Shown here in pieces: positions 4,313 to 41,148 of a DNA stretch of 64,000 nt. The stretch comes from Parcubacteria group bacterium. GTDB taxonomy: Bacteria > Patescibacteriota > Minisyncoccia > Phycocordibacterales > Zambryskibacteraceae. The notes below the pieces were generated by a model that ran no database searches, was not told where the DNA came from, and worked only from the letters and a program-made list of their open reading frames with translations. A program made the translations under genes and the position numbers. Position 1 is the stretch's first letter, and every line of letters begins with the position of its first letter. The stretch spans positions 217,567 to 281,566 of the forward strand of contig JAQBRH010000004.1 in NCBI GenBank assembly GCA_028286565.1, read 5' to 3'.

Positions 4313-4332
4313 GCCCTTAGCTTATAACCTAT

Positions 4333-4424: not shown

Positions 4425-4430
4425 CGGGAC

Positions 4431-4649: not shown

Positions 4650-4655
4650 GTATCT

Positions 4656-28134: not shown

Positions 28135-29721
28135 CCTAATGTTTCTTATTCTAATAGTGTCCCTAAAGGATTTATTCTTTTGGGCAAACATCCTTTCATG
28201 AGGGACGGGTTTGTGCTTGTTGCTGAAGCATATGGTCCCTGAGGCCACCAAAGCCTCAATTACAGGGCTTGGAACTGCCGTGACGAGTTTCCGGTTAGCC
28301 ACCTCAAAACGTTCCCAGAATAGGCTTATGTAGATCCTCTTAAGCTCTGGTGGAGCCTCCTGGTAGGACTGACCTATATTCTTGGCAAGGTGAACTATCT
28401 GCTGGATTGTGTCCACTTTGATGTTCCTGCTTTTCTCAAGTTTTATCAGCTCCTCGTCGCAAGTGTAGATTGCTTCTCGCTGCTTAAGTTTGATCCGAGT
28501 GAAGTCGCTATCATCTAGAATGCCGGAGACAAGTTTTTCTTCCGCCACAGCAAGCTTCTGTTCCGCACTAGACTTAACAGCAAGAATCTTTCTTTTCTCT
28601 CGGATAACATCTCGCTTTTTTAGATCATATATAAACTGCACACGGGTAAGTAGCTTTTCAATAAATTCTGGCGAGAATTCAATGCCCGTGAATAGCTCCT
28701 CAACAGCTATCTCAATATCAGCTGCTCTGACGCTGCGATCCTCATCAGAGATGATTCCAGGCTTTTGTTTACTTGTAAGATATGGACGGTAATAGGTCTT
28801 GTCTTTCTTCGGATGAGTTTCTCCTATAAAGCGGAGTCCGCTTACTGAGGAGAATATATATCCCCGCAAGAGGAAGTCGTATTTTCTTCTTCTGCAGGCG
28901 TGGTGATTATGGTCATCGCAGACCTCTTGGCAACGATCAAAGATGTCTTTGGTCGTGAGTGGGGGATGTTTGCCGATTTGCTCCATCTCCCTCCAACGCA
29001 TAATGCCGTAATAGAATGGATTGCGGATAAGTCGTAGTAGATTCGCAACGCTGAGCATCCCGCCAGTTCTCGACACAAGTCCTTTCTTCTTGAGTTCCTC
29101 ACCAAGCTCGAGCATGGAGTAAGAACCGGTTGAATATCTTTGAAAGAGTTCGGTTATAAGAGAACCCTTCATTTCATCCAGAATAATTATTCTCTTGTCT
29201 GGGTTGTCTGGTGCTCCGGCATTGAGATATCCGACAGGAACTTTGGTAACCCACCAGCCATCTCTGAACCTCTGCTCCATACTTTTAATAGTTTTCCTTG
29301 AGGTAATCTGTGACTGGTACTGGTTAATCAACGCTATAACGCCATCTTGCACTTCGCCCTCAATTGATTCATCAAGGCCAGGTTGATTTACCGAAATAAG
29401 CTTTACCCCTTTCCGTTTCAGAAGTGCTTTGATTGAAAGATGATCAAGCATATTTCTCGCAAGTCTATCGGTGTCGAGAACGTATACTGCACCAACCCTT
29501 TCATCTTCTTGAACACGTACAAGCAGTTCTTGTAGTGCGGGTCTGTTGGTATTCCTCGCTGTTTTTCCTAGGTCTTTGTAGACTCCATCCTCAGCCAACT
29601 CATATTCCGTACTGGCTAAGATTGCCTTCTTTGAGAGATCAAGCTGCGTCTGGATAGAGTATCGACCCTCACCGGCCTGTTCCTCAGTAGAAACTCTGCA
29701 GTAGATAAGGGCCTTTTCCAT
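28081..29721 (-). CDS. Large serine recombinase (site-specific integrase)
   Basis: N-terminal resolvase domain ALIYCRVSTEEQ (catalytic Ser), a recombinase domain and a Cys-rich zinc ribbon (CDDHNHHACRRRKYD). 546 aa. The last ~18 codons are antisense to tRNA-His, so the true stop is uncertain. Confidence 0.85.
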   Translation of the reverse strand: MEKALIYCRVSTEEQAGEGRYSIQTQLDLSKKAILASTEYELAEDGVYKDLGKTARNTNRPALQELLVRVQEDERVGAVYVLDTDRLARNMLDHLSIKALLKRKGVKLISVNQPGLDESIEGEVQDGVIALINQYQSQITSRKTIKSMEQRFRDGWWVTKVPVGYLNAGAPDNPDKRIIILDEMKGSLITELFQRYSTGSYSMLELGEELKKKGLVSRTGGMLSVANLLRLIRNPFYYGIMRWREMEQIGKHPPLTTKDIFDRCQEVCDDHNHHACRRRKYDFLLRGYIFSSVSGLRFIGETHPKKDKTYYRPYLTSKQKPGIISDEDRSVRAADIEIAVEELFTGIEFSPEFIEKLLTRVQFIYDLKKRDVIREKRKILAVKSSAEQKLAVAEEKLVSGILDDSDFTRIKLKQREAIYTCDEELIKLEKSRNIKVDTIQQIVHLAKNIGQSYQEAPPELKRIYISLFWERFEVANRKLVTAVPSPVIEALVASGTICFSNKHKPVPHERMFAQKNKSFRDTIRIRNIRGGYRESNPDCKLHKLEC

Positions 29722-29722
29722 A

Positions 29723-29989
29723 TTAGGTTCTTAGTTTTCTCAGTGAATCGATACGCACCTGGTCTGCTTCTAGGAAGGGGACTACTCGTCGATTTTTAAT
29801 CGCTGTGAGTTGATCAATCAGAACATTAATCTCGTTTGCCGATGAGGTCTTATTCTCTATAGCTTTATCCGCTCTTTCTCGAACAAGTTTGGCGTTCTTC
29901 TTTGCTCTTGGAAGTGTAAGTAGAAGCATCAGGAATCCGATTGACACAAACAGGCCCACCACGAGGAATATGAAGATGATTATTAGCAT
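29723..29989 (-). CDS. Small membrane-anchored coiled-coil protein, hypothetical (coupled to integrase start)
   Basis: TM helix MLIIIFIFLVVGLFVSIGFLMLLL, then a charged helical tail. Its stop abuts the integrase ATG. Confidence 0.4.
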   Translation of the reverse strand: MLIIIFIFLVVGLFVSIGFLMLLLTLPRAKKNAKLVRERADKAIENKTSSANEINVLIDQLTAIKNRRVVPFLEADQVRIDSLRKLRT

Positions 29990-30252
29990 GAAGGGAGTAA
30001 CAAGCGGTTAATCCCTTGGTGAGATACAAAAAGCCCACCACGGGTAGAGCCCGAAGGCTCTCGTACCAGTTTCCCGATACGGCAGGTCATGCGACCCCAT
30101 GATGGGTTCTTTGAGCACGACCTGACTTTGAACCATGCCTTTGGATTGCTCCAAAGGGTTAGGTTCCCAACTGTTCCCAGCTGTAAGTTAATTATGCCTA
30201 ATTTCATGGTTTTTGCTATAAGTGATCATTCCGCCCATATATGTCTTTAAAT

Positions 30253-30301
30253 TGCCGATGACTGCCGATAAGAGTCCTAAAACTAGCAATGACTAGCAAT
30301 G
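30253..30301. promoter_or_regulatory. Cluster of short tandem direct repeats (TGCCGATGAC-TGCCGATAAG; ACTAGCAATG-ACTAGCAATG), a candidate operator between the RHH gene and the integrase operon
   Basis: Seen directly at 30253-30272 and 30282-30301; both sets share the ATGACT core. Confidence 0.45.
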
Positions 30302-30312
30302 AGGGAGTCTGG

Positions 30313-30513
30313 CTACATGATTTCTGGTAATGATTCGTCCTGGTACTGCTCTATAATTTTTCGGTGCTTTTCTTGGTTAAATAGCTCTTCTAGTGCCTCG
30401 CTCACTATCTCGCTCATGGTCTTATTAAGATAAGTGGTGGCGATCTTACATAGGCGATGAGCTTTTTTGCTTACCCTTATTTGCCTTACGTAGCTAACTT
30501 GTCGATTTGTCAT
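30313..30513 (-). CDS. Ribbon-helix-helix (CopG/Arc-like) DNA-binding protein, putative regulator
   Basis: RQIRVSKKAHRLCKIATTYLNKTMSEIVSEALEELF is a beta-strand-helix-helix pattern. 66 aa. Confidence 0.5.
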   Translation of the reverse strand: MTNRQVSYVRQIRVSKKAHRLCKIATTYLNKTMSEIVSEALEELFNQEKHRKIIEQYQDESLPEIM

Positions 30514-30737
30514 TTTCTTATGCTTTTGGCTTCTATCTCCCTCATAGCTTTTAAGAGAGGCTATTAATTATTTGGCGGACAGAATGCTACTGTTTCCAAC
30601 CAGTCAAGGTTCTCCTAGGTCCTTGAATTTTTGTCTGGCGAAACGATCACATGTGTTCTTCCTGATGTGCAGGTGAGGTCCCCCGTTGAGAAGCCATTAC
30701 TCAGAGCGGGGACTTGCATCCGCACACCAACAAGTTT

Positions 30738-30911
30738 TCAGCCCAAGTTTTTCAAGAGATGTGCTGACAGCTCTTTCTGCTCACTATGGTTAATCGAAGT
30801 CTTTTCTATCTGAAGAAGAAATAGTTCTGCCAACTGATCAATGAAAAGGTTCTCAGATTTCTCTGTTTTTTCTTTTCTATTGGTCTTTTTAATGGCTTGA
30901 TACTTTTTCAT
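30738..30911 (-). CDS. Small hypothetical protein (uncertain)
   Basis: 58-67 aa helical ORF between the RHH and Zn-ribbon genes. No recognisable domain. Confidence 0.25.
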   Translation of the reverse strand: MKKYQAIKKTNRKEKTEKSENLFIDQLAELFLLQIEKTSINHSEQKELSAHLLKNLG

Positions 30912-31028
30912 ACAACAAAAAAGACCCAGCCAGGAAACCAAACAGGGGTGTTTAGTTACTTGGCTGGGTCCTCTAAGTTCTTGCGAACTTCTATATAACC
31001 CGCACTTCAGCTATGAATGTTCTACGAC

Positions 31029-31280
31029 TTAAATGCTATTCTCTATCTCGCTCTCTGTCAAATCTGCTGTAAACACCCCCTCATTGGGACCAAAGCGGAT
31101 CACCTTCATGCCACCCTCAGTATCTTTTCTAGGTGGATAAACAATAGATATCGTGTGGCATTTCGTGCATCTTATTTTTCTGATATTTTTCTCTCCAAGG
31201 TGTGAGTCGCCCATATAGTGTGCACAGTTCGTGCAGATAATTCTCTTGACCCCGTCTTTATTAAAAGTTTTCTGTTTCAT
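31029..31280 (-). CDS. Zinc-ribbon protein (CxxC-x17-CxxC), hypothetical; immediately downstream of the KAP NTPase
   Basis: CTNCAHYMGDSHLGEKNIRKIRCTKCH. 83 aa. Confidence 0.5.
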   Translation of the reverse strand: MKQKTFNKDGVKRIICTNCAHYMGDSHLGEKNIRKIRCTKCHTISIVYPPRKDTEGGMKVIRFGPNEGVFTADLTESEIENSI

Positions 31281-31305
31281 AAATTGATTATAAATTAATC
31301 AGTAT

Positions 31306-33576
31306 CTAGTACATAGGGTCATTTCTTTTTGGAAAATCTTTCTTGAAGAGTGATATTGCATCTTTTTGATTGTCGGGCAGTTTATCTAATTTCACTTTAT
31401 CTATTGTGGTTTTGATGTAATCGAGATCAAAAAATTCTTTGAGTGATGAAAATGATATTCTCGGTATTTGTTCAGTAATCATGCCAGATGATCTGAGAGA
31501 TATTGTTTTAAACTTTGATACAAACTCAGCCAAAGCAAGTCTGCTCTTTTTATAAGTATTAACAAAAGTCCTCATATCTTTTTCACCACCCCATTCCTTC
31601 CATCTATATAAAATGTAGACAAGGTTTTCTTGTTTTTTTAGAGATCCGTCTTTATATGCTTTATTTATTTTCTTAAGACCTTCCTTCGATAGCTCTGTTA
31701 TTTCTAGATTATCAAATAATTTTTCTCGGCCGGAAGATTCTTTTTCAGGTCTGGGGAAGTACGAGGAAATAAGGTGGATAGCCCCATATAAGGATTTAGT
31801 TTTTCGGATAGCTTCTCTGCTCGGTTCAAATATGGAAATTTCCCTATCTTTCAATGATTTTAGATAGAAATGGATTACCCTCATAAGATCTGTCTCGGCT
31901 CCGAAATCAAACATCTGATGGGACTTTATACCTGACACCTCATCTGCAATATCCAATAGAACAGTTAAGGTCTGAGCGATCTTATTTCCCTCGGTAGGGA
32001 ATTCTTTTACGTGATCTAGGATCGTAGTGAGAAACTTCCTGATGTCTTTCTTCTTGTCTTGAGTTTTGAGATAGCCGTGCAGCAGAGCAGAAAATTGTTT
32101 GTAGTCTCTAACTTTTTCTAGTGCTGAAGTAATCTCAGACGACCGCATCTCACCCTCAGGGACATTCAAGAAGAAGTAGGTATCAAAATGATCAGCTGAA
32201 CAAATCCTTCTATTCTGCCGCCACTCTTGTTCAATGGTATCGCCCATTGAGTAGTTCTCGAGCACCGATTTAAGGGGAGGGAAGAGTTCGACAAGAAAAT
32301 CTTTAATAAATGGATCAACTTTAACTAACTCAATTCCAATATTTTTCCTTATTTCATCAAGCCTTTTTGATTGATAGTCTCTATGATGGTTTAGCGTAGT
32401 GAACTCCTCTTTATTGTTAGATATGTAATTGTATAAATCAGGATAGAAGTGTTCGAGGGTTCTTATTCCGAGAAAATCAACAGGATCCACCTCGCTTGAT
32501 ATTAAGCTTGCCGCCATCGTCATTTGGCTCAGTGGCCTCTTGATTATTCTGAGATTCCCTCTTTTAAGAAAAGCTTTACCTAAGCCAGAATGATATAGTG
32601 TTGCCCATCTATTTTTATCCCATTTGCTTTCGGAGAAAAACTTTATCAGTTCGTCTAATTGAGCGAATAAGAATTCAGACAATTTTTTGTCATCAGCTTT
32701 TGGAAGCGAGATGGGAATTTGCACAATTTTCTCAATATATTCCATTCCCTCAATACCGTCCTTACTTATCATTTTTCCTACGGTGCCTACGTCCATAACC
32801 ATAAGATATATAAGATTTGGAAGATCTAAATTGATTTTTACTAGTTGGAATAGATTTCTTACCTCCTCCGGCGTGAGACGATCTATATCATCTATAATGA
32901 ACAGAATTTTGCGATCTCTTTTAGATAAAGTCTCTCTAATATCATTCTTTAGTTGGTTAAGCGTTTTCTCTGTTAAAGAAGATTTTTTCTTATAGAAATC
33001 CTCAGCCATAGATACAAGCCCTTCGATAAAGGTAAGAGATTCTAAAATTAAAATAAGAATTATTGTTCCTACGTAGGCGATAGGGCTAAATGCAAAAATT
33101 TTATCTAGTATCACAACTCCCGTAAGCCCAAGAATTGGGAGCCATAGCCTGATAATAGGAAGAAAAGCTTTGTCTTTGATTTTAGTTATTGTTCCTAAAT
33201 ACAATTTTACAAGACCAAGCTGCCTAGCTATTTCCTTGTCTATTTCATTATTTTTCTGTCCCAGCTCTTTACCAACCTCTAATAGAAAATTCTGGACCAA
33301 GTCTCCTTGGTTGGAGAATATCCAAGGGTTAAACTCTATAATTGTTGGGATCTTGTCCTGATCGATATCCTCCTCAAATTTATCAGGGTGATTATAAAAA
33401 TCTTTAATGAAATTGACGACAGAGGTCTTTCCATCACCCCATTTTGCATATAAACCAATTACAAGACTGTCGGAGTCCTTCCAAGATAGGATGTCTTTTG
33501 CGATACGCTTAGCAAAGCCTTTTCGGCCAAGGAGGTCTTCCTCAACTGTCTCTACCGCTTTATCAGAAAAAGCCAT
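31306..33576 (-). CDS. KAP-family P-loop NTPase (membrane-inserted NTPase domain)
   Basis: Walker A GLYAKWGDGKTSV, two TM helices inserted after the P-loop (LPIIRLWLPILGLTGVVIL / IAYVGTIILILILESL), Walker B ILFIIDDIDRL, and a long helical C-terminus. 756 aa. Confidence 0.8.
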   Translation of the reverse strand: MAFSDKAVETVEEDLLGRKGFAKRIAKDILSWKDSDSLVIGLYAKWGDGKTSVVNFIKDFYNHPDKFEEDIDQDKIPTIIEFNPWIFSNQGDLVQNFLLEVGKELGQKNNEIDKEIARQLGLVKLYLGTITKIKDKAFLPIIRLWLPILGLTGVVILDKIFAFSPIAYVGTIILILILESLTFIEGLVSMAEDFYKKKSSLTEKTLNQLKNDIRETLSKRDRKILFIIDDIDRLTPEEVRNLFQLVKINLDLPNLIYLMVMDVGTVGKMISKDGIEGMEYIEKIVQIPISLPKADDKKLSEFLFAQLDELIKFFSESKWDKNRWATLYHSGLGKAFLKRGNLRIIKRPLSQMTMAASLISSEVDPVDFLGIRTLEHFYPDLYNYISNNKEEFTTLNHHRDYQSKRLDEIRKNIGIELVKVDPFIKDFLVELFPPLKSVLENYSMGDTIEQEWRQNRRICSADHFDTYFFLNVPEGEMRSSEITSALEKVRDYKQFSALLHGYLKTQDKKKDIRKFLTTILDHVKEFPTEGNKIAQTLTVLLDIADEVSGIKSHQMFDFGAETDLMRVIHFYLKSLKDREISIFEPSREAIRKTKSLYGAIHLISSYFPRPEKESSGREKLFDNLEITELSKEGLKKINKAYKDGSLKKQENLVYILYRWKEWGGEKDMRTFVNTYKKSRLALAEFVSKFKTISLRSSGMITEQIPRISFSSLKEFFDLDYIKTTIDKVKLDKLPDNQKDAISLFKKDFPKRNDPMY

Positions 33577-33654
33577 AAGGCCATACTACATGAGGAGTTT
33601 GGAATTACCACACGCAAGCTTCTCTTTTGTTCTATCGAGGTATATTCTGGCTAT

Positions 33655-33966
33655 ATGAAAAAGGTTGTTGTATATGTGCCCCTAACCCACACCGATCAAG
33701 TTCGGGAGGCTATCGGGCAGGCTGGAGGCGGGCAGCTCGGGAAGTACGCCTTCTGTAGCTTCTCTACACGGGGTATAGGGCGTTTTAAGCCTCTGGAAGG
33801 GGCTAACCCTCATATTGGCTTTGTGGGTCAAATGGAGGCTGTAGAGGAAGAAAGAATCGAGGTTTCCGTGGAAGATAGTCTGGTGGAGAGTGTGATATCC
33901 GCCATTAAAAAGGTACATCCGTACGAGGAAGTGGCTTTGGACATATATAATTTAGAGCAAGTATGA
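33655..33966 (+). CDS. Small PII/CutA-like (Nif3 C-terminal-like) protein
   Basis: 103 aa. The C-terminal HPYEEVALDIYNLE resembles the Nif3/CutA HPYE(E/V)P motif, with a beta-alpha-beta pattern. The call is tentative. Confidence 0.4.
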   Translation: MKKVVVYVPLTHTDQVREAIGQAGGGQLGKYAFCSFSTRGIGRFKPLEGANPHIGFVGQMEAVEEERIEVSVEDSLVESVISAIKKVHPYEEVALDIYNLEQV

Positions 33967-34595
33967 AAATCACCAAACTTGGTCATTGCTGCCTACTGCT
34001 AGAAACTAAGGGCCAGAGAATTCTTACAGACCCAGGTAGCTATACCGTAGACGCACATTCTCAACTCACAAACGTCGATTACATTTTGTATACCCACGAG
34101 CATCAGGATCATTACCACCTTGAGTCATTGAAAGTGCTTATTGGAAAAAATCCACAAGCAATTATCTACACTAATGATTCCGTAAGTGAGCTTCTTACCA
34201 AAGAGGGAATAGCTCACACGCTTGTCCGGAACGGAGAAGCGGTATCTCTCGGGGAAATTTCTGTGGTTGGTATTGGTGAAGAACACGCCCAAATGCACAG
34301 CTCGATACCTTTATCGTCCAACATTGGTTTCCTAATTGATGAGAGATTATGGTATCCAGGCGATGCCTTCACTAATCCAGAAAGAGAGATAGAGATCCTC
34401 GCCCTTCCCGTGTCTGGCCCGTGGATGAAGATAGGTGAGGCAATAGATTACGCATTTCTTCTTAAGCCTAAAAAAGCTTTTCCGGTTCATGATGGTACAC
34501 GTTTTGGATCTGCACATAATCTCCCCGCGAAGCTTCTTCCGGCGAATGGCATCGAGTTTGTAGTAATGGCTGAGGGTGACAGCAGGGAATTCTAA
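33963..34595 (+). CDS. Metallo-beta-lactamase-fold hydrolase
   Basis: HEHQDH (HxHxDH) zinc motif, a downstream His, and the WYPGD...PVHDG motif. Confidence 0.75.
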   Translation: MKITKLGHCCLLLETKGQRILTDPGSYTVDAHSQLTNVDYILYTHEHQDHYHLESLKVLIGKNPQAIIYTNDSVSELLTKEGIAHTLVRNGEAVSLGEISVVGIGEEHAQMHSSIPLSSNIGFLIDERLWYPGDAFTNPEREIEILALPVSGPWMKIGEAIDYAFLLKPKKAFPVHDGTRFGSAHNLPAKLLPANGIEFVVMAEGDSREF

Positions 34596-34608
34596 TATAA
34601 TCAAAACC

Positions 34609-35295
34609 ATGACTGAACTTGAAAGGAATTTCCAAAAATTTAAGAAGATTACAAGAGAAGAGTTCTTTATTGCTGAAGAAATTAAAAAGCATGTTGAGAT
34701 TAAAGATACTGATACGATTTTGGATGTCGGCTGTGCTGATGGTAATCTCTCAAAGTCATTAACTAAAGACTCAACAAACATTACATTTCTAGATGTTGAT
34801 GAGTTTAATTTCTCTCCTCAGGAGAAATTTATCCGCTCTTCGTTTGAGGAGGTAGAGTTAGGCGAGAAGTTTGATCTGATTTTAAGTTCGCATGTCTGGG
34901 GACACTTCTACAGGAACAACACCTTTGGTTTCTGCTTTAAGAAAGCCCATGATCTGCTCAAAGAAGGCGGAAAGCTGATCGTGGTGCATAACTCTAATAA
35001 AGACTTTACCGGGAAGCTCATCGAATTCTCGAAGACATTATTCGATCAAATAGAGTTCGATGTCTTTCTCGATGAGTTCTTAGAAGGTGCAGATTATGAG
35101 GAATCCTACTTCGATGTGAATTTGAAAGCGGAAACATTCAGAGAACTGGCAGAACTTGTCCAGGTATTATTGGTTGTTCCAGATGCTATCTATTACTCGA
35201 AGATCGAAGAGATGACCCGCTTCTTAGAAGCTAATCTGGAAAAACCGGAGTTCGCTATTAATCAAAGACTTTTAGTAATAAAGAAGAAAGGTTAG
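34609..35295 (+). CDS. Class I SAM-dependent methyltransferase
   Basis: Motif I ILDVGCADGNLS. I chose the ATG at 34609, 7 nt after a TATAAT box; the ORF-track start at 34576 is in frame and overlaps the upstream gene. Confidence 0.7.
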   Translation: MTELERNFQKFKKITREEFFIAEEIKKHVEIKDTDTILDVGCADGNLSKSLTKDSTNITFLDVDEFNFSPQEKFIRSSFEEVELGEKFDLILSSHVWGHFYRNNTFGFCFKKAHDLLKEGGKLIVVHNSNKDFTGKLIEFSKTLFDQIEFDVFLDEFLEGADYEESYFDVNLKAETFRELAELVQVLLVVPDAIYYSKIEEMTRFLEANLEKPEFAINQRLLVIKKKG

Positions 35296-35312
35296 GCGAA
35301 TGAGGCTATAAA

Positions 35313-36206
35313 ATGACTTACGACAATAATTGGTTCAAACAACGGGCTCTTAATTCTTTCCGCAGGATAGGTCCTAACGTCTGGGATTATTCTGATTCTT
35401 TACTTCTTTATATTTCTTCAGGAGTGGAGAAATACGAATCTCTACAAGAGGAGGATACTCCTTATTTTAAGTTAGTGATTAAACCAGAACGCGAATATTT
35501 AGAATCAATAGCAAAGGATGTTATTAACGCCTTACCTTCGAATTTTGAGTATGTTGATCTTGGTCCAGGCACTGAACACAAGGAACAATTCTTTTTCGAT
35601 GAGCTTAAGAAGCAGGGGAAGAAGTTTACTTATATTCCTGTAGATATTAGCGAGCATTACCTCAAGCTGGCTGAACAACACGCTATCGATCAAGGCATTC
35701 CTGTCAGCACAATACAGTCTTCTTTTGAAGAAGCGGCTGAAGTATTAGGAGAAGGAAGCGTGCCACGCTTTGTAAATATTGGGCTCACTTTCTCTAACTA
35801 TGAACCTCAGGTAATTCTAAAACTACTTAAAACTATTGCAGGCAAGGGAGGGTTCGTTTTTATCAATAGCCAAATGAGAGATAGGTTAGATATAAATAGT
35901 TTACAACGAGTATATGCAGAAGATGCTTTGACTTTGGCGGACGATAAACTCAAGCTAGTCGGTTTAGATCCTAATGCTGATGTGACCCCAAGAAAAGCAG
36001 ATGATGCTATTAAGGTATGGTGTTCAGTTATTAAGCCCTCTCTCGATCTTGAGACGATTGGAGTTGTGGAGGGCGATAAATTGCTTGTTTTTCAATCCCT
36101 CCGATATACACCAGAGAAGCTTAAGGAAGAACTAGAAAAAGCTTCGGAGAACTATCAAGTGTTTGATACAGGTGCTTCTTTCATTGCTGGGTTAATCAAA
36201 ACCTAA
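35313..36206 (+). CDS. EgtD-like (Methyltransf_33/DUF323) SAM-dependent methyltransferase
   Basis: YVDLGPGTEHKEQFFFDEL, YIPVDISEHYL and NIGLTFSNYEP resemble the EgtD-family motifs (ELGSGSSxKTR, VPVDVS, GSTIGN). Confidence 0.5.
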   Translation: MTYDNNWFKQRALNSFRRIGPNVWDYSDSLLLYISSGVEKYESLQEEDTPYFKLVIKPEREYLESIAKDVINALPSNFEYVDLGPGTEHKEQFFFDELKKQGKKFTYIPVDISEHYLKLAEQHAIDQGIPVSTIQSSFEEAAEVLGEGSVPRFVNIGLTFSNYEPQVILKLLKTIAGKGGFVFINSQMRDRLDINSLQRVYAEDALTLADDKLKLVGLDPNADVTPRKADDAIKVWCSVIKPSLDLETIGVVEGDKLLVFQSLRYTPEKLKEELEKASENYQVFDTGASFIAGLIKT

Positions 36207-36447
36207 ACCAAAGCAGGGAAGGAGGAAATAAAATCCAGCTTCTCTTTTACTCCTTCCAGGTATATTCTGTCGGAGAAGATATCCAGAATAATTTTCCTAT
36301 CGGGACCCAAATTTGCGAAGCTAATTTGGCGTAGGCTACAGGGAATCGAAAGACGGAGGCGCGAAGCCGATCCAGCAGGATCGCAGCCGAGTCGGGGTCG
36401 CGGAAATTTTCTGCCGAAAATTATCCGTGCCCGATGAACCCCTTATT

Positions 36448-36531
36448 CTGTAGCCACCCAAATTTTTAGGCCTATAAATAAAGGTAGTTTTTGGTACCCA
36501 GATGGGGATTAGAACCTGATATACTCACAAG
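36448..36531 (+). repeat. Cassette boundary/promoter module R1 (att-like CTGTAGCCACCC + ACCCAAATTTTT + GATATACT -10 box 6 nt before the ATG)
   Basis: It is related to R2 at 38172-38276 (~80% identity over 75 bp). Confidence 0.55.
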
Positions 36532-37248
36532 ATGAAAGAGGATATTTATTTTGAAAGTGGAAGTCTTAAACTTGTTGGCACTTTATATAAAGCGCCTAAG
36601 GAGAAAGCCTCAGCGCTTTTAATTGCAGGAGGGGGGAACACCCATCGACACAAAGGATATTATCCTCCGTGGCAAAACTTTCTTTTGGAGAACGGAGTCA
36701 CAACATTCAACTTTGATTTTCGAGGGGTAGGAGATGCAGAAGGAAATTTAAATGAAAGCAATCTAAATACAAGAGCAGAAGATGCGAAAGCTGCCCTTGA
36801 AATTCTGAAGCAACATTCTGATACAGAAAATATATTTGTAGTCGGTGTAAGCATGGGCGGGCCTGTGGCGATAAGGATAGTAGATCATTCAATTAAAGGA
36901 ATGCTTCTGGTTGTTGCCGCTGCATATTCAATGGAAGCGCGAGATAAGAATTTTGGCCCCGAGTTTTCAGAAGCGATACGAAAACCAGACAGCTGGAAAG
37001 ATTCACCTGATTTTAAAGACTTAGAGAGATACATGGGCGACACATTTTTGCTATATACGGATAGTGATGAAGTAGTTCCTCAGGGTATAAGTTTGAACTA
37101 CGAAGAGATCATAAAAGCAAAAGGGGGACAGGTGCTTGCCCTTAAGGATGCCAACCATCGAACCTGGAAGGAAGGGCAACAAGAATATGCCTTAAGGGAG
37201 ATGTCGAATTTTATCCTTGAGAAGAGCCTATCAAAGGTATACTCATGA
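36532..37248 (+). CDS. Alpha/beta-hydrolase fold protein
   Basis: Nucleophile elbow GVSMGG, then a downstream Asp and His (DSDEVV...ANH). 238 aa. Confidence 0.7.
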   Translation: MKEDIYFESGSLKLVGTLYKAPKEKASALLIAGGGNTHRHKGYYPPWQNFLLENGVTTFNFDFRGVGDAEGNLNESNLNTRAEDAKAALEILKQHSDTENIFVVGVSMGGPVAIRIVDHSIKGMLLVVAAAYSMEARDKNFGPEFSEAIRKPDSWKDSPDFKDLERYMGDTFLLYTDSDEVVPQGISLNYEEIIKAKGGQVLALKDANHRTWKEGQQEYALREMSNFILEKSLSKVYS

Positions 37249-37625
37249 GTATGATAAGTTTCATTTTAAATCTTCCTTGGACTATTCTCGGTGTATTGGC
37301 AGGGATTGTGTCGATACCTAAAAAGTTTCAAGGCAATAAAAATCCTTTCGCTTTAGTATTTACTGTAAAAAGTTTCTGGTGGTATACATGGCAACCCAAG
37401 ATGAGGGGAGCGCGAGCTATGACGATAGGGCATGTGGTTCTTTTGAGCCCAAATATTTTGGAGCACGATCTAGAACATGAACTTATACACGTAGAGCAAG
37501 CTGTGCGTATTCCACTTATACATCCAGTTCTCTATGCAATCGAAAGTTTTAGGAAGGGCTATCGAGAGAATAAATACGAAAAGGAAGCTTATGGTAGGGC
37601 AGGAAACATTTATATAGAAAAATGA
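37245..37625 (+). CDS. Small membrane-anchored HExxH zincin-like protein (paralog A)
   Basis: N-terminal TM, WWYTW, then LEHDLEHELIHVEQ (HExxH plus a downstream Glu). Its start overlaps the upstream stop (ATGA). Its 3' ~360 bp are ~98% identical to 38918-39275. Confidence 0.6.
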   Translation: MSMISFILNLPWTILGVLAGIVSIPKKFQGNKNPFALVFTVKSFWWYTWQPKMRGARAMTIGHVVLLSPNILEHDLEHELIHVEQAVRIPLIHPVLYAIESFRKGYRENKYEKEAYGRAGNIYIEK

Positions 37626-38173
37626 CTGAAAAAGAAATTCTCAAGCTTATCCAAGAGGACTCATGGATGATGGAGACTTTACGTAAAGCAGAAAGTTTGA
37701 ATTTAAAAGATTGGGCTATTGGAGCGGGATTCATTCGAAATAAGATTTGGGATCACCTTCATGGATATACGGAAAGAGAATGGGGGAGCAGCGATGTGGA
37801 TCTGGTCTATTTTGATGAAGATGATAAGGGTGAGGAATATGATGAGAAGTTGTCTGAGAAGTTAAAGAGTGAGACAGGGACCAATTGGGAAGTGGTAAAT
37901 GAGCACCATGCTCACGTATGGAATAAGATTCCGCCTTACACTTCCGTTGAGGATGCAATTTCAAAGTTCCCTGAGACTGTAACCGCTATAGGTGTTCGCA
38001 TAAGAAATGAAGAAATAGAACTGATTACACCCTATGGAATTGAAGATAACGTGAGCATGATCATCCGACCAACGCCCATATTTGAAGACAAGATGGATAA
38101 GATCCGTGAGAGGGTGGCAAAGAAGGGTTGGATGGAAAAATGGCCTAAACTAAAGTATGCGGAGACCGAATAA
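37622..38173 (+). CDS. Nucleotidyltransferase-fold protein (minimal NTase, PF06042-like)
   Basis: GAGFIRNKIWD...SSDVDLVYFD, i.e. the G[GS] and DxD motifs of the Pol-beta superfamily. It is translationally coupled to the HExxH gene (ATGA overlap). Confidence 0.55.
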   Translation: MTEKEILKLIQEDSWMMETLRKAESLNLKDWAIGAGFIRNKIWDHLHGYTEREWGSSDVDLVYFDEDDKGEEYDEKLSEKLKSETGTNWEVVNEHHAHVWNKIPPYTSVEDAISKFPETVTAIGVRIRNEEIELITPYGIEDNVSMIIRPTPIFEDKMDKIRERVAKKGWMEKWPKLKYAETE

Positions 38174-38276
38174 AGTTCTAAACCCATCCACCCACCGACC
38201 CAAATTTTTTCAGGGCTATAAATAAGGTTAGTTTTTGCTACCCAGATGGGAATTTAGAAATGATATACTGAATTCT
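38172..38276 (+). repeat. Cassette boundary/promoter module R2 (AGTTCTAAACCCATCCACCCACCGACCCAAATTTTTT...GATATACT)
   Basis: Shares the AGTTCTAAACCCATCC boundary with R3, and the ACCCAAATTTTT..TATAAATAA..GTTAGTTTTTG..TACCCAGATGGG block with R1. Confidence 0.55.
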
Positions 38277-38810
38277 ATGAAAAGATTTTCAATCGTGATT
38301 CTTGTTCTCGTAGGTTTGAGCGCGGGTTACTGGTATAAAACCGGACATGTCGCACTGCAACCGGCGCTGTGGAAATCTGTTTGGATAGGTACAACGTACC
38401 CCCCGCTCTCTAATGGATTGTCTAGCAACGGCGCGCTCACAGTTGGAGACGCAAGATATGCCACATATGTTATAGACGAGATGAAAACTCCAGACGGCAC
38501 CGAACTATGGTTAGCAAGCATGGTAAAGGGAGTGAACGGAAAGCCTATTTTTACCGTTACTGACGCCCTACCTTTTTTCTCTGGCGCTGATGAAAACGGA
38601 AATATGTCGATTTGGGGAGTATGCGGTTATTCGCCTGACAAAGTACTTAATATCGATAATTCAATTGTCGCTCAGATAAGTGCCAGAGACTATGTATCCA
38701 GTGGGCCCATTAATGCAAAGAAAGCATGGAAGGCGAATAATGCCACTGGAAAATTTGAGTCGATTCCGCCAGTAGGAATCTCCTGTATTAATGAAGGAGG
38801 GCAGGAGTGA
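38277..38810 (+). CDS. Membrane-anchored/secreted hypothetical protein
   Basis: Start at MKRFSIVILVLVGLSAGYWYK, an anchor resembling that of gene 40405. No domain recognised. Confidence 0.45.
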   Translation: MKRFSIVILVLVGLSAGYWYKTGHVALQPALWKSVWIGTTYPPLSNGLSSNGALTVGDARYATYVIDEMKTPDGTELWLASMVKGVNGKPIFTVTDALPFFSGADENGNMSIWGVCGYSPDKVLNIDNSIVAQISARDYVSSGPINAKKAWKANNATGKFESIPPVGISCINEGGQE

Positions 38811-38830
38811 TAAAACACTCCCTTCATTCG

Positions 38831-38900
38831 AAACTAGTTCTAAACCCATCCGCCCGACGACCCGGTTTTCAATCTGTCGACCCAGGGGTATACTCTGAGT
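38831..38900 (+). repeat. Cassette boundary/promoter module R3 (AGTTCTAAACCCATCCGCCCGACGACCCGGTTTTCAATCTGTCGACCCAGGGGTATACT)
   Basis: Nearly identical to R4 at 40349-40404; the TATACT box lies 6 nt before the ATG. Confidence 0.55.
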
Positions 38901-39275
38901 ATGATAAGTTTCGTTTTAAATCTTCCTTGGACCATTCTTGGTGTATTGGCTGCTATTGTTTCAATGCCTAATAAGTTTCGTACTAACCCGAGCCCTTTCG
39001 CTTTGGTATTTACTGTAAAAAGTTTCTGGTGGTATACATGGTTACCAAAGAGGAAAGGAGCACGAGCCATGGCGATAGGGCGTGTGGTTCTTTTGGGCCC
39101 AAATATTTTGGAGCACGATCTAGAGCATGAACTTATACACGTAGAGCAAGCTGCGCGTATTCCACTTATACATCCAGTTCTCTATGCAATCGAAAGTTTT
39201 AGGAAGGGCTATCGAGAGAATAAATACGAAAAGGAAGCTTATGGTAGGGCAGGAAACATTTATATAGAAAAATGA
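38901..39275 (+). CDS. Small membrane-anchored HExxH zincin-like protein (paralog B)
   Basis: MISFVLNLPWTILGVLAAIVSMP...LEHDLEHELIHVEQ. The C-terminal half is nearly nucleotide-identical to paralog A. Confidence 0.6.
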   Translation: MISFVLNLPWTILGVLAAIVSMPNKFRTNPSPFALVFTVKSFWWYTWLPKRKGARAMAIGRVVLLGPNILEHDLEHELIHVEQAARIPLIHPVLYAIESFRKGYRENKYEKEAYGRAGNIYIEK

Positions 39276-39829
39276 ACGAAGATCTTGTTTACATCGACCA
39301 ATACGGCCTCCTTGGTAGTAATTTCTATTGGCACCATAGAGCGGATAAGGGACTGTCTGATCAAGATCTGATCGAAGCCGAACTGACTAATGATCGAGTG
39401 TTGGTGCACAGAGATATTATCGATAAATTAATTTCGATAGATAAAGAATTCCAGAAGAGGGGGTATAGGCTCTATATCAAAGAAGGATACCGTTCAAAAA
39501 AGCTCTACGAGATGATCTACAAGCGACGGGTAGAAATGTTCGGCAAAGAGGAAACAGATAGACTCTTGAACATGAAGGATATGCCGCATTCTTTTGGCAA
39601 GTCTATTGATGTATCCCTGAGAGATATTACCGGTACAGAAGAAGTGCCAATGCGTAACAAGGCGGATGGGACCGGTGCTTTATTTATTAATTTCTATAAA
39701 GGCAAGGAAGACGAACAAAGTAAGAAGTATCAAGAGCTGCAAGATTTTGTGCTTTCAGTAATGCGTGCTCATGGATTTAAGCTTGGAACTAAGAACGAAT
39801 ATTTCCACTTTGATCACAAAGAGTTCTAA
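39272..39829 (+). CDS. Peptidase M15 (VanY/D-Ala-D-Ala carboxypeptidase-like, LAS zinc-binding) family protein
   Basis: PHSFGKSIDVS (H-x2-G-x-S-I-D) and EYFHFDH (second His), as in VanX/VanY. It is coupled to the HExxH gene (ATGA overlap). Confidence 0.55.
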   Translation: MNEDLVYIDQYGLLGSNFYWHHRADKGLSDQDLIEAELTNDRVLVHRDIIDKLISIDKEFQKRGYRLYIKEGYRSKKLYEMIYKRRVEMFGKEETDRLLNMKDMPHSFGKSIDVSLRDITGTEEVPMRNKADGTGALFINFYKGKEDEQSKKYQELQDFVLSVMRAHGFKLGTKNEYFHFDHKEF

Positions 39830-39865
39830 ATTCATCTCCGCGGGGGTATACTTCTTCTCAATCAT

Positions 39866-40333
39866 ATGGATGTACACGTAAGGCGATCTAGGAACGGGCA
39901 GGGCATTTTTGCAAATAGAGATTTTTCTGCACAAGAAGTTATATATGAAGTGAAAGGAAAATTGATCACATGTGGCGAAGATGAGGATATCGATCAGAGG
40001 GTCCGGGATAATACATTTAGATTCGACAAAGAGAAATATCTAAGTCCGGAAGGCGAATTGGGCGATTTCCAGAATCATTCGTGCGAACCGAATGCCGGAG
40101 TTTTCAAAAGTAAGAAAAAACTTTTTATTAAGGCGATTAAAAATATTAAAGAAGGCAAAGAGATCCTTATAGACTATTCCACGATCCTTGCTACAGACGA
40201 CACCTGGACGATGAAATGTAATTGCGGAAGCGCAAACTGCAGGGGGATCATAAAGAAATTCAAGAATATACCAAAAGTAACCAAAGAAAAGTATCTCGCC
40301 TTAGGTATTGTCCCAGAGTACATCTTAAATTAA
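39866..40333 (+). CDS. SET-domain protein (putative protein lysine methyltransferase)
   Basis: NHSCEPN, EILIDYS (ELxxDY) and the post-SET Cys cluster CNCGSANCRG. It has its own GGGGGTATACT promoter box at 39842-39852. Confidence 0.75.
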   Translation: MDVHVRRSRNGQGIFANRDFSAQEVIYEVKGKLITCGEDEDIDQRVRDNTFRFDKEKYLSPEGELGDFQNHSCEPNAGVFKSKKKLFIKAIKNIKEGKEILIDYSTILATDDTWTMKCNCGSANCRGIIKKFKNIPKVTKEKYLALGIVPEYILN

Positions 40334-40348
40334 GGCGGCCCTCATTTC

Positions 40349-40404
40349 ATCATCCGTCCGACGACCCGGTTTTCAATCTGTCGACCCGGGGGTATACTTT
40401 AGGC
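40349..40404 (+). repeat. Cassette boundary/promoter module R4
   Basis: CATCCGTCCGACGACCCGGTTTTCAATCTGTCGACCCGGGGGTATACT; 52 of 55 nt match R3. Confidence 0.55.
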
Positions 40405-40977
40405 ATGAAAAAACAACAAGGATTTGCCACCCCCCTTACGCTGGGGTTACTAGTAGTTTTGCTTGTGGGAGGGGGGTATTATTGGATGAATCACAGGTCT
40501 TCTTCGAATTCTCCGGCCAAGACGCTCAGCATAACCGCCTCGGACTGGAGCACCTACAAATGGATGGGAATCGAACCGACGCATATTTCCTTTGCAGAGG
40601 CGGCGACTCCCGCTCTTGCCATCACGGGGTGGAAAGGTTTTGTGGATTTTAATTCAGACGGTCCGGCGGGGAACCTGAGAGTTGAAACTTTTCAAAAAAC
40701 AAATTCTGAAAAGGACTTTCCTTCATATGTAGCGGCCAACATGGGGATCTTTGAGTCAGTGAAGTTTTTCCAAGTCGCGGGCCACGATGCAGCAAGGATA
40801 CGACACGCATCCAAAGATCAATACGACGCGGACGTCGCCTGGTACTTCATAGATGCGGGCGATAAGTCTATCATTGCCATCTCTACCAGCGGAGACAGCA
40901 TGTATCTCTACGACGATGATCAAAACGGCATGTCATCAAGGGATAGGTACATCGCCGGGTACCAGCCTGCGAAGTAA
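40405..40977 (+). CDS. Membrane-anchored/secreted hypothetical protein
   Basis: N-terminal anchor LLVVLLVGGGYYW, then a soluble domain with no recognised fold. 190 aa. Confidence 0.45.
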   Translation: MKKQQGFATPLTLGLLVVLLVGGGYYWMNHRSSSNSPAKTLSITASDWSTYKWMGIEPTHISFAEAATPALAITGWKGFVDFNSDGPAGNLRVETFQKTNSEKDFPSYVAANMGIFESVKFFQVAGHDAARIRHASKDQYDADVAWYFIDAGDKSIIAISTSGDSMYLYDDDQNGMSSRDRYIAGYQPAK

Positions 40978-40983
40978 CCTGAT

Positions 40984-41148
40984 ATGAGGAAACTCCAATG
41001 GACCCAGGTCACGTGGTATTCCAAACTCGCCACCATTATTTTGCTGATGGGCGCCTTTCCGGCCCTGGCCTTCTATATAGGAACCCAATACGAAGAGACA
41101 ATGCTTGCCACTACTCAGGAACAATATATTGACATTTCGAACATTTAA
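40984..41148 (+). CDS. Small (54 aa) single-TM protein; paralog of 45895..46095
   Basis: LQWTQVTWYSKLATIILLMGAFPALAFYIGTQYEE versus IKWNDITWYSITISGVFFLILLPSIIFYIGNQYKE. It is below the ORF-track size cutoff. Confidence 0.4.
   Translation: MRKLQWTQVTWYSKLATIILLMGAFPALAFYIGTQYEETMLATTQEQYIDISNI

What the first reader, a model, noticed from the sequence alone, without database searches (positions are those of the whole stretch)
37245..39275. Near-identical HExxH zincin-like paralogs paired with different downstream enzymes
Genes 37245..37625 and 38901..39275 encode 125-aa membrane-anchored proteins with LEHDLEHELIHVEQ. The 3' ~360 bp of each are ~98% identical at the nucleotide level, while the N-terminal anchors differ slightly. 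Each is translationally coupled (ATGA overlap) to a different enzyme: a minimal nucleotidyltransferase versus a VanY-like M15 peptidase. The HExxH..Q pattern is reminiscent of zincin-like domains that accompany toxin or effector modules, but that is only a tentative analogy. The near-identity implies recent duplication or gene conversion, and it gives a substrate for cassette shuffling.
Basis: partly seen in the sequence, partly recalled or inferred. Interest (0 to 1): 0.65.

Follow-up and report, generated by a model that had tools for sequence, protein, structure and literature searches.

The report
Duplicated small DUF4157-like zinc peptidase genes
Two copies of a small, probably membrane-tethered zinc-protease-like gene sit in a foreign DNA island of an ultrasmall (CPR/Parcubacteria) bacterium; they belong to a previously unmodelled branch of the DUF4157 family, whose function is still unknown, and they have no fixed partner gene.

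Summary
The two ORFs are real paralogues: 37251(or 37245)-37625 and 38901-39275, 124 aa, both with LEHDLEHELIHVEQ. Each overlaps a downstream enzyme gene by ATGA (NTP_transf_6; LAS/M15 D-Ala-D-Ala-peptidase-like). The genes are 90.7% identical overall and 98.9% only over the last 175 nt. dS is 0.50 in the 5' half and 0.028 in the 3' half, which fits an old duplication plus recent 3' gene conversion ending at the ATGA.

Across 65 homologous loci the downstream gene is variable (35 clusters among 40) and is absent or on the opposite strand in a third. Upstream neighbours recur (secA, ligA, dnaK). Rare fusions join the module to ASCH, NUDIX, PPase-like, P-loop or hydrolase-like domains.

The best reading is a small membrane-tethered gluzincin-like peptidase carried on a low-GC island. 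A toxin-adaptor role is not shown. I class it as a new variant of a known kind, of moderate interest.

The parts
37251..37625 (+). HExxH paralogue A (124 aa; an alternative ATG at 37245 gives 126 aa and an ATGA overlap with the upstream hydrolase)
   Evidence: ORF list and sequence. Alignment to copy B starts at this ATG. Corresponds to the 124-aa database entry JWN89_638/P0002. Carries the family invariants N7, P9, P23, R55, D73, H76, E77, H80, P88, E110 and A113.
38901..39275 (+). HExxH paralogue B (124 aa)
37447..37627 (+). High-identity (gene-conversion) tract of copy A. Its counterpart is 39097-39277 in copy B. There are 2 mismatches in about 180 nt, and the last 121 nt are identical. The tract ends at the shared ATGA.
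   Evidence: Mismatch positions. dS is 0.028 in this tract and 0.50 in the 5' half. dS against the outgroup L042 is saturated in both halves. Permutation p = 1e-5.
39097..39277 (+). High-identity (gene-conversion) tract of copy B
36532..37248 (+). Alpha/beta hydrolase gene immediately upstream of copy A, in the same transcription unit
   Evidence: Pfam Hydrolase_4 and Abhydrolase_1. Its stop TGA at 37246-37248 abuts the start of copy A.
37622..38173 (+). Nucleotidyltransferase (PF06042 NTP_transf_6) overlapping copy A by ATGA
   Evidence: E 1.9e-51; sequence.
39272..39829 (+). LAS/M15 D-Ala-D-Ala dipeptidase/carboxypeptidase-like gene overlapping copy B by ATGA
   Evidence: Sub-threshold PF01427 and PF02557 and NCBIfam DdpX/VanXY/VanX. 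The Zn and catalytic motifs are visible by eye in the translation.
38847..38900 (+). Promoter-like repeat upstream of copy B (TTTTCA-17-TATACT), duplicated at 40351-40404
   Evidence: Repeat family D4; consensus scan; motif search.
38298..38810 (+). Gene between the two operons for a protein of unknown function with a hydrophobic N-terminus. It has its own promoter-like repeat at 38207-38269, similar to 36463-36525.
   Evidence: No Pfam, NCBIfam or PADLOC hit.
28137..41000 (.). Low-GC island that carries both copies. It lies beside tRNA-His and holds a large serine recombinase, a PifA-like KAP NTPase and LOOT RNA. The right boundary is approximate.
   Evidence: GC is 0.416 in the island against 0.53 on both flanks. 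tRNA; recombinase and KAP NTPase; PifA; LOOT.

Best explanation
Both ORFs are real genes for paralogous ~124-aa proteins. They belong to a small family seen almost only in Patescibacteria (CPR). The family is a divergent branch of the DUF4157/eCIS_core ('PVC-metallopeptidase') zincin superfamily that carries an N-terminal hydrophobic helix.

Proposed mechanism (inferred): the protein is a minimal gluzincin-type peptidase held at the cytoplasmic membrane by residues ~2-21. H76 and H80 of HExxH, together with the invariant E110 on the GYRxNKYExEAY helix, bind zinc, and E77 acts as the general base. Its substrate is unknown.

Genomic setting (shown): the genes are cargo of a ~13-kb low-GC island next to tRNA-His. 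They arose by an older duplication (dS about 0.5 in the 5' half). Their 3' ~180 nt were recently homogenised by gene conversion, which stops where homology stops, at the shared ATGA.

Meaning of the pairing (inferred): the pairing with a nucleotidyltransferase and an M15 peptidase is operon packing with translational coupling, not a dedicated two-gene system. In other genomes the family has no fixed partner. It sits among housekeeping genes and small hydrolases, often just downstream of secA. It is occasionally fused to whichever small enzyme follows it.
For: Family and fold:
- At least 118 clusters of 120-135-aa homologues were found; every named source is CPR, and none has a Pfam domain.
- Invariant residues are N7, P9, P23, R55, D73, H76, E77, H80, P88, E110 and A113.
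- 52 of 88 members give sub-threshold PF13699 hits.
- hhalign against a distant branch gives 99.9%. Nearly all top database hits of that branch's profile carry a precomputed PF13699 annotation, and some are named 'DUF4157 domain-containing protein'.
- hhalign of the CPR family against 40 such proteins gives 99.3%, E 1e-20, with shared motifs A-x-A-x-T/A-x-G, HELxHVxQ and GYxxNxYExEA.

Selection and mosaic structure:
- dN/dS is 0.24 in the diverged half. dS is 0.50 in the 5' half and 0.028 in the 3' half. dS against the outgroup is saturated in both halves. Permutation p = 1e-5.

Island:
- GC is 0.416 in the island against 0.53 in the flanks. It contains tRNA-His, a serine recombinase and a PifA-like gene.

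No fixed partner:
- Of 65 non-redundant loci, 40 have a co-oriented downstream gene, and these fall in 35 clusters. In 21 loci the next gene is on the opposite strand.
- Upstream genes are co-oriented in 51 loci. secA lies within 4 genes in 7 distinct loci. ligA and dnaK also recur upstream, and one locus reads dnaK-HExxH-dnaJ.

Fusions:
- Fusion partners are ASCH, NUDIX, PPase-like, AAA_18, M60-like and hydrolase-like domains.
Against: - Peptidase activity, metal binding and membrane insertion are all inferred.
- The window proteins score only 13-14 bits against PF13699, whose cut-off is 22 bits.
- Foldseek against the PDB found nothing significant.
- Topology is unresolved. Flanking charges favour a cytoplasmic domain. 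My by-eye reading of two N-terminally extended polytopic variants (P0122, P0132) favours an external one.
- The high pTM of 0.86 may mean that the N-terminal helix packs on the domain rather than spanning a membrane.
- The fusion partners and neighbours overlap repeatedly (NUDIX, ASCH, hydrolases). This could reflect a real functional link that 'operon packing' underrates.
- The family is rare: 41 loci in a scan of one genome from each of 185,579 species, using a pattern matched by 76% of members. That sits awkwardly with a housekeeping role.
Confidence: 0.55

Rival explanations
1. Cargo-adaptor or processing module. By analogy with DUF4157 in eCIS and T6SS loci, the HExxH module would act in cis (fusions) or in trans (the adjacent, translationally coupled gene) on a variable enzyme 'payload'. 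It would mature, release or tether that enzyme at the membrane or for export. The two island copies would then serve two different payloads, the NTase and the M15 peptidase.
For: - DUF4157 is found N-terminal to, or next to, diverse eCIS toxins (PMC8213781; PMC11297309).
- Natural fusions have the HExxH module N-terminal to ASCH (two clusters sharing less than 50% identity), NUDIX, PPase-like, AAA_18, M60-like and hydrolase-like domains.
- The same families recur as neighbours. NUDIX is adjacent or nearby in 8 loci. ASCH is adjacent in L045. Serine hydrolases occur in L008, L044 and the window.
- An RHS protein carries the related domain at its C-terminal toxin position.
- Both window copies overlap their downstream genes by ATGA.
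Against: - A third of the loci have no co-oriented downstream gene, and tight coupling is at least as frequent with the upstream gene.
- The partners are ordinary cytoplasmic housekeeping-type enzymes, and many neighbours are core genes such as DnaJ, ScpA, FUR, PBP2 and SecA.
- No CIS, T6SS or immunity-like genes were seen.
- No PADLOC hit was found.
- Four-base overlaps are common in compact genomes (own knowledge).
- In the RHS case the domain is itself the payload, not an adaptor.
Confidence: 0.2
2. Translocon-linked quality-control protease. The family would be a minimal HtpX/M48-like membrane protease working with the Sec machinery and chaperones, for example to clear jammed or misfolded membrane or secretory proteins or signal peptides. 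The island copies would be extra, horizontally acquired doses.
For: - secA lies immediately upstream, or within 4 genes upstream, in 7 distinct loci spanning Saccharibacteria and several Parcubacteria lineages.
- One locus reads dnaK-HExxH-dnaJ, and ftsH lies two genes upstream in L002.
- Bona fide small DUF4157 genes of Gemmatimonadota sit directly after comEC, another membrane translocation machine, in four protein clusters.
Against: - Distribution is patchy and rare.
- Most loci lack secA.
- The secA-NUDIX order resembles the secA-mutT order of E. coli (own knowledge), so it may be inherited synteny without functional meaning.
- No sequence-level match to M48 or M56 was found.
- Here the genes lie on a mobile island, not near secA; no secA match was found in the window.
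Confidence: 0.2
3. Toxin or defence element. The membrane-targeted zincin would itself be a toxin (as for VgrG2b and the RHS tips), or part of a toxin-antitoxin or anti-phage system on a defence island.
For: - The island carries a PifA-like KAP NTPase (E 8e-76) and a recombinase.
- The closest solved relative is an antibacterial toxin.
- An RHS protein (P0266) bears the domain at its tip.
Against: - No PADLOC hit was found for the HExxH protein, the NTase or the M15 gene.
- There is no conserved small immunity-like partner.
- Most homologues lie in housekeeping contexts.
- dN/dS of 0.24 shows ordinary purifying selection.
- Viral contigs hold only distant relatives.
Confidence: 0.05

Closest known systems
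Pfam PF13699 eCIS_core (formerly DUF4157; 'PVC-metallopeptidase')
   Same: - It shares the A-x-A-x-T/A-x-G strand motif, HELxHVxQ, and (in the small stand-alone clade) GYxxNxYExEA.
- hhalign gives 99.3% against PF13699-annotated proteins.
- It is sometimes N-terminal to variable enzymatic domains, as described for eCIS toxins (PMC8213781).
   Different: - It scores below the Pfam gathering threshold: 13-14 bits against 22.
- It carries an extra N-terminal hydrophobic helix with invariant N7 and P9, plus two extra strands.
- Named sources are almost all CPR.
- No eCIS or T6SS context was seen.
- Fusion partners are small hydrolases, not recognised toxins.
VgrG2b C-terminal effector domain of Pseudomonas aeruginosa (PDB 6H56)
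   Same: - It is a DUF4157-type gluzincin whose zinc is bound by HExxH plus a downstream glutamate (PMC6899460). This matches the invariant H76, H80 and E110 here.
   Different: - VgrG2b is fused to a T6SS spike, acts as a periplasmic antibacterial toxin and has a cognate immunity gene.
- There is no detectable sequence-profile match.
- The ligand spacing differs: 48 residues there against 34 here.
Small stand-alone DUF4157 proteins of Gemmatimonadota and others (e.g. P0283, P0290, P0295, P0369)
   Same: - They are a similar size (109-120 aa), share the same three motif blocks including the C-terminal GYRxNPYEVEA, and are single-domain.
- They lie in housekeeping gene strings beside a membrane translocation gene. 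There it is comEC; in CPR it is often secA.
   Different: - They have no N-terminal hydrophobic helix.
- They come from different phyla.
- Their synteny is fixed (MiaB-ComEC-DUF4157-FBPase), whereas CPR contexts are variable.
Minigluzincins and the M48/M56 integral-membrane metallopeptidases (proabylysin 4JIU, HtpX, BepA, BlaR1)
   Same: - They have a minimal zincin scaffold of about 100 residues with HExxH and a glutamate helix, and are membrane associated.
   Different: - No sequence-profile relationship was detected.
- The secondary-structure order differs, with an N-terminal helix followed by four strands.

Membership tests
Pfam PF13699 eCIS_core / DUF4157 | Whole-protein HMM score at or above the curated gathering threshold (22 bits) | tested here: not met
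   The window proteins score 13.8 and 13.1 bits. 52 of 88 family members hit below threshold, best E 0.0012.
Pfam PF13699 eCIS_core / DUF4157 | Homology to bona fide members by profile-profile comparison | tested here: met
   hhalign of A2 against A4 (40 proteins with a precomputed PF13699 annotation, some named 'DUF4157 domain-containing protein') gives 99.3%, E 1.1e-20, 41% identity over 70 columns. A2 against the bridging set A3 gives 99.9%. 28 of 44 A3 members hit PF13699, best E 1.2e-6.
Pfam PF13699 eCIS_core / DUF4157 | HExxH embedded in the HELxHVxQ context, preceded by the A-x-A-x-T-x-G strand | tested here: met
   The window proteins read ARAMAIGRVVLLGP...LEHELIHVEQ. The DUF4157 consensus reads AAAVTLGRTIVVHP...LRHELAHVRQ.
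Pfam PF13699 eCIS_core / DUF4157 | Genomic association with eCIS or T6SS loci, or an N-terminal position in toxins | tested here: not met
   None of the annotated neighbours in the window or in about 65 homologous loci is a CIS or T6SS component or a recognised toxin. Only a distant RHS-borne relative (P0266) lies in a toxin context.
Gluzincin (MA(E)) metallopeptidases | HExxH plus a third glutamate ligand on a downstream helix, within a zincin fold | tested here: met
   [not shown]
Gluzincin (MA(E)) metallopeptidases | Zinc binding and peptide-bond hydrolysis | not testable with these tools
   This needs biochemistry.
M48 / M56 / minigluzincin families | Sequence-profile match to the family models | tested here: not met
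   [not shown]
Single-pass membrane-anchored protein | One hydrophobic segment of about 20 residues without charges, and a defined topology | tested here: inconclusive
   Kyte-Doolittle is 1.97 for residues 1-19 and the family mean is 1.72. K+R counts are 0.36 on the N-terminal flank and 2.5 on the C-terminal flank, which suggests N-out/C-in. N-terminally extended polytopic variants, read by eye, suggest the opposite. No TM predictor was available.
Known anti-phage defence or toxin-antitoxin systems (PADLOC) | Match of the HExxH protein or its partners to a defence-system model | tested here: not met
   There was no hit for the HExxH protein, the NTase or the M15 gene. Only the unrelated KAP NTPase matches PifA.
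Integron-type gene cassettes | attC-like sites (GTTRRRY core, imperfect inverted repeats) and an IntI integrase | tested here: not met
   The junction repeats (GTTCTAAACCC...) do not fit GTTRRRY and occur only at 38.2-40.4 kb. The only recombinase is a large serine recombinase.

The most novel reading that the evidence does not exclude
In CPR episymbionts, which as far as I know lack eCIS and T6SS, this helix-plus-DUF4157 module could be a general 'handle'. It would tether, process or export a changing set of small enzymes (NUDIX, ASCH, PPase, kinase, hydrolase, NTase, M15) at the cell surface or translocon. In that case DUF4157's long-unknown role in toxin loading would derive from an older, translocon-associated (SecA/ComEC-linked) processing function. 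The two island copies would be two such handles, each with its own payload.
Probability: 0.12. Interest if true: 0.75.

Novelty: new variant of a known kind. Interest (0 to 1): 0.4.

Why it matters
DUF4157/eCIS_core is a widespread marker of contractile-injection toxins, and its function is still unknown. This finding adds a compact, well-conserved branch seen almost only in CPR bacteria. The branch lies entirely outside injection-system loci and has an N-terminal hydrophobic helix and a clear HExxH...E signature.

Together with the small stand-alone DUF4157 genes found beside comEC in Gemmatimonadota, it shows that the domain has a life unrelated to eCIS. It also offers simple 124-aa proteins on which metal binding, activity, topology and partner dependence could be tested.

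Locally, the two copies give a clean example of partial gene conversion between island-borne paralogues in a CPR genome. The practical gain is a seed alignment for a new family model. That model would annotate several hundred currently 'hypothetical' proteins.

Tried and rejected
- Foldseek of the model against the PDB gave no match better than E 0.9. The afdb50 library was unavailable.
- PDB sequence-profile searches gave only a weak LXG fragment (9mno_E, E 0.018) for A2 and nothing for A3. I treated these as uninformative.
- NCBIfam had no model for the HExxH protein. PADLOC had no hit for it or for either partner.
- I considered integron-like cassettes because the junction sequences repeat. 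I rejected this: the core does not fit attC, there is no IntI, and the repeats are local pairwise duplications of promoter-like spacers.
- I considered serial integration at tRNA-His. Only one borderline 21-nt similarity to the tRNA 3' end was found, at 36447-36467 (score 25 against a shuffle maximum of 23, with eight regions tested). This is not established.
- I checked for a phage origin. Viral contigs hold only distant relatives at 26-42% identity.
- Cluster look-ups of distant members returned no informative names.
- I considered, by eye, programmed -1 frameshifting at GAA AAA TGA that would make HExxH-enzyme fusions. There is no canonical slippery heptamer, so I did not pursue it.
- The 325-nt spacer at 36207-36531 has no Rfam hit and only a modest folding z-score of -1.9.
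- The supplement of the paper I expected to describe LOOT RNA (Weinberg 2017) was not held.
Full report
**1. Observation**

The window holds two + strand ORFs, 37245..37625 and 38901..39275, and both contain LEHDLEHELIHVEQ. Aligned, the copies are collinear from the ATG at 37251 in copy A and 38901 in copy B, giving 124 codons each. That length equals the database entries (JWN89_638 and JWN89_641 of a 'Parcubacteria group bacterium' MAG).

Each stop codon overlaps the next gene's ATG as ATGA. The downstream genes are a PF06042 nucleotidyltransferase (E 1.9e-51) and an M15 (VanX/VanY-like) protein. The M15 protein scores just under the Pfam cut-offs and has weak NCBIfam DdpX/VanXY/VanX hits. 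It keeps the YRS, H-x3-G-x3-D and E-x2-H motifs (by eye).

There are 35 mismatches in 375 nt (90.7%). Identity is 83.5% over the first 200 nt, 98.9% over the last 175 nt and 100% over the last 121 nt. The proteins share 110 of 124 residues.

**2. History of the two copies**

| Region | dS | dN |
|---|---|---|
| Codons 1-66 | 0.50 | 0.119 |
| Codons 67-124 | 0.028 | 0.007 |

- Against the closest outside relative (L042, 77% protein identity), dS is saturated in both halves. The 3' half is therefore not intrinsically constrained at silent sites.
- A 121-nt identical run, or a run of third-codon positions without a mismatch as long as observed, arises in about 1 of 100,000 permutations.
- I read this as an older duplication followed by recent gene conversion of the 3' ~180 nt.
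- Homology begins at a GGTATACT box. In copy B this box is the -10 of a promoter-like repeat. In copy A it encodes the last codons of the upstream hydrolase.
- Homology ends exactly after the shared ATGA.
- dN/dS of 0.24 in the diverged half shows that both copies are under purifying selection.

**3. Setting**

- Both genes lie in a ~13-kb low-GC block: GC 0.416 against 0.53 on either side.
- The block begins at tRNA-His.
- It contains a large serine recombinase whose 3' end overlaps the tRNA, a KAP NTPase that matches PifA (E 8e-76), and a LOOT RNA.
- It then carries a + strand run of small enzyme genes: a PII-like protein, an MBL hydrolase, two methyltransferases, an alpha/beta hydrolase, HExxH-A, the NTase, an unknown anchored protein, HExxH-B, the M15 gene, a SET-domain gene and another unknown anchored protein.
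- Promoter-like spacers are duplicated pairwise inside the island only.
- Copy A is the middle gene of a hydrolase-HExxH-NTase unit. Copy B heads its own unit.

**4. What the protein is**

*Family.* The first database search found at least 118 clusters of 120-135-aa homologues. Every named source is Patescibacteria, and none has a Pfam domain. Two loci of the genome scan (L031, L039) carry 'uncultured Gammaproteobacteria' titles, which I regard as probable mis-binning. An 88-sequence alignment has invariant N7, P9, P23, R55, D73, H76, E77, H80, P88, E110 and A113. Q83 and NKYExEAY are nearly invariant.

*Link to DUF4157.*
- Pfam gives only sub-threshold matches, but 52 of 88 members point to the same family, PF13699 eCIS_core (the former DUF4157).
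- An exhaustive profile search of 1.84 billion representatives found 506 relatives. They include a distant branch of 85-165-aa proteins with the same HELxHVxQ...GYxxNxFExEA signature.
- hhalign joins the CPR family to that branch at 99.9%.
- 28 of 44 members of that branch hit PF13699, best E 1.2e-6.
- That branch's own profile retrieves proteins that nearly all carry a precomputed PF13699 annotation; some are named 'DUF4157 domain-containing protein'.
- A direct hhalign of the CPR family against 40 such proteins gives 99.3%, E 1e-20, with 41% identity over 70 columns.

*Structure.*
- AlphaFold2 gives a confident model: pLDDT 92.9, pTM 0.86. Its elements are helix 2-20, four strands, the HExxH helix 73-86, helix 91-102 and helix 108-117, which carries E110.
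- According to its authors, VgrG2b C-ter is a DUF4157-type gluzincin. Its zinc is held by the HExxH histidines and a glutamate, and its toxicity needs the catalytic glutamate (PMC6899460).

*Conclusion.* The protein is a divergent, CPR-specific member of the DUF4157 superfamily with a gluzincin signature. By Pfam's own threshold it is not a member of PF13699.

**5. The N-terminal helix**

- Residues 1-19 have a Kyte-Doolittle mean of 1.97, and the family mean for residues 3-21 is 1.72. Most members have no charge in this segment.
- Flanking K+R counts are 0.36 on the N-terminal side and 2.5 on the C-terminal side, which favours N-out/C-in.
- Fusions to NUDIX, ASCH, PPase-like and P-loop domains fit a cytoplasmic domain.
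- Two variants with extra N-terminal transmembrane segments (P0122, P0132), read by eye with the positive-inside rule, give the opposite answer.
- The invariant N7 and P9, together with the high pTM, may mean that the helix is part of the fold.
- I leave topology unresolved.

**6. Is there a variable downstream partner?**

I collected 41 genome loci, 34 metagenome loci and three look-ups. I called ORFs and clustered all neighbours.

*Counts among 65 non-redundant HExxH genes:*

| | Co-oriented within 200 nt | Distinct clusters | Next gene on opposite strand | Gaps of 10 nt or less |
|---|---|---|---|---|
| Downstream | 40 | 35 | 21 | 19 |
| Upstream | 51 | 44 | 5 | 29 |

*Annotated downstream neighbours*: FUR, NUDIX, an AI-2E transporter, serine hydrolase, PaaX/Cas2-like, PNPOx, MsrB, a 2H phosphoesterase, DnaJ, an HD domain, Ham1, ScpA, thioredoxin, aldo-keto reductase, DUF218 and PBP2.

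*Recurrent upstream genes*:
- secA, immediately upstream or within four genes in seven distinct loci from Saccharibacteria and several Parcubacteria lineages;
- ligA;
- dnaK, including one dnaK-HExxH-dnaJ locus;
- class I methyltransferases;
- HAD hydrolases.

Equally, the data do not single out the downstream position.

**7. Fusions**

In several independent assemblies the HExxH module is fused at its C-terminus, without a linker, to a different small domain:

| Fusion partner | Examples |
|---|---|
| AAA_18 P-loop | L001 |
| Pyrophosphatase-like | L010, P0125 |
| ASCH | L012, P0119 |
| NUDIX | P0120 |
| M60-like | P0203 |
| C-terminal domain with a GSSAGG serine-hydrolase-like motif (no Pfam match) | L052 |
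| Unknown domains | P0127, P0137 |

The same families recur as neighbours: NUDIX in eight loci, an ASCH gene overlapping the HExxH start in L045, and serine hydrolases in L008, L044 and the window. This is the best evidence for a real functional link with small hydrolases. It could also simply reflect fusion of overlapping neighbours in compact genomes. A distant relative sits at the C-terminal toxin position of an RHS protein (P0266).

**8. Comparison with the known**

DUF4157 is described as an eCIS core domain found N-terminal or adjacent to toxins, with unknown role (PMC8213781; PMC11297309). It is also described in T6SS effectors (PMC6899460). The CPR family shares the catalytic core. It differs in three ways: the N-terminal helix, the near-restriction to CPR, and the absence of any injection-system context.

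The nearest sequence relatives that Pfam does recognise are about 110-aa stand-alone proteins of Gemmatimonadota. They lie in a fixed MiaB-ComEC-DUF4157-FBPase string. One other lies beside NIF3 and FolC. None of these is in an eCIS context either. The small stand-alone clade with the GYxxNxYExEA helix therefore looks like a separate, non-eCIS lineage of the superfamily, and the window genes are a helix-bearing offshoot of it.

**9. Verdict**

The zincin/DUF4157 lead is right. The 'variable partner' idea is half right: neighbours and fusion partners are variable, but there is no dedicated downstream partner and no toxin context.

My favoured mechanism is a small membrane-tethered gluzincin-like peptidase of unknown substrate, duplicated and partly homogenised on a mobile island (confidence 0.55). 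The rivals are a cargo-adaptor role (0.2), a translocon-linked quality-control role (0.2) and a toxin or defence role (0.05).

Novelty: a new variant of a known kind. Interest: moderate (0.4). The main value is as a clean, minimal, non-eCIS entry point to the unsolved function of DUF4157, and as a seed for a missing family model.

Noticed in passing
window 28063-41000: A low-GC block (0.416 against 0.53) starts at tRNA-His. The large serine recombinase gene (28081-29721, minus strand) ends inside the tRNA on the opposite strand. This looks like an integrated mobile element. The right border near 41 kb is set only by GC content.
   Followed up: partly
window 31306-33576 (-): A 756-aa KAP-family P-loop NTPase matches the PADLOC PifA model over its full length (E 8.4e-76). 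This is a candidate abortive-infection gene in a CPR genome.
   Followed up: partly
window 30046-30165 (-): There is a full-length match to Rfam LOOT RNA (RF03000, 85.5 bits against a cut-off of 46.4). It lies inside the island, near the recombinase.
   Followed up: no
window 36463-36525 / 38207-38269; 38175-38201 / 38837-38863; 38847-38907 / 40351-40411; 33617-33649 / 36237-36269: Promoter-like intergenic spacers are duplicated pairwise (83-89% identity). The searched junction motifs occur only at 38.2-40.4 kb. Most transcription units of the island's right half start with one of them, ending in G-rich + TATACT.
   Followed up: partly
window 36207-36531: A 325-nt, locally GC-rich spacer lies between two promoter-like boxes. 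It has no Rfam hit and an RNA-fold z-score of -1.9. It contains a 21-nt stretch (36447-36467) resembling the 3' end of tRNA-His plus its flank (borderline score). This could be a remnant attachment site that splits the island in two.
   Followed up: partly
window 39866-40333 and 35313-36206: The island cargo includes a SET-domain protein (PF00856, E 7.5e-17; weak resemblance to the Legionella effector LegAS4) and an EgtD/EasF-like methyltransferase.
   Followed up: no
L021, L025, L026, L050, L012, L039, L004; L016: The gene order secA-HExxH(-x)-NUDIX recurs across distant CPR lineages. It recalls the secA-mutT order of E. coli (own knowledge). One locus reads dnaK-HExxH-dnaJ.
   Followed up: partly
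L079, L081, L090, L092 (gene at about 4001-5357 in each): Small stand-alone DUF4157 genes of Gemmatimonadota-type contigs always follow comEC, in a MiaB-ComEC-DUF4157-FBPase string. This is a conserved non-eCIS context for DUF4157.
   Followed up: partly
P0266 (790 aa), residues about 606-790: An RHS-repeat protein carries, after the DPxGL core end, a hydrophobic stretch and then a domain of this HExxH...NRYEEEA type. Here the domain is used as a polymorphic-toxin tip.
   Followed up: no
window 33655-33966; L044:5684-6001; L019, L046, L052: A ~105-aa PII-like protein family (weak PF00543 hit) recurs in HExxH neighbourhoods in five loci, including this island.
   Followed up: no
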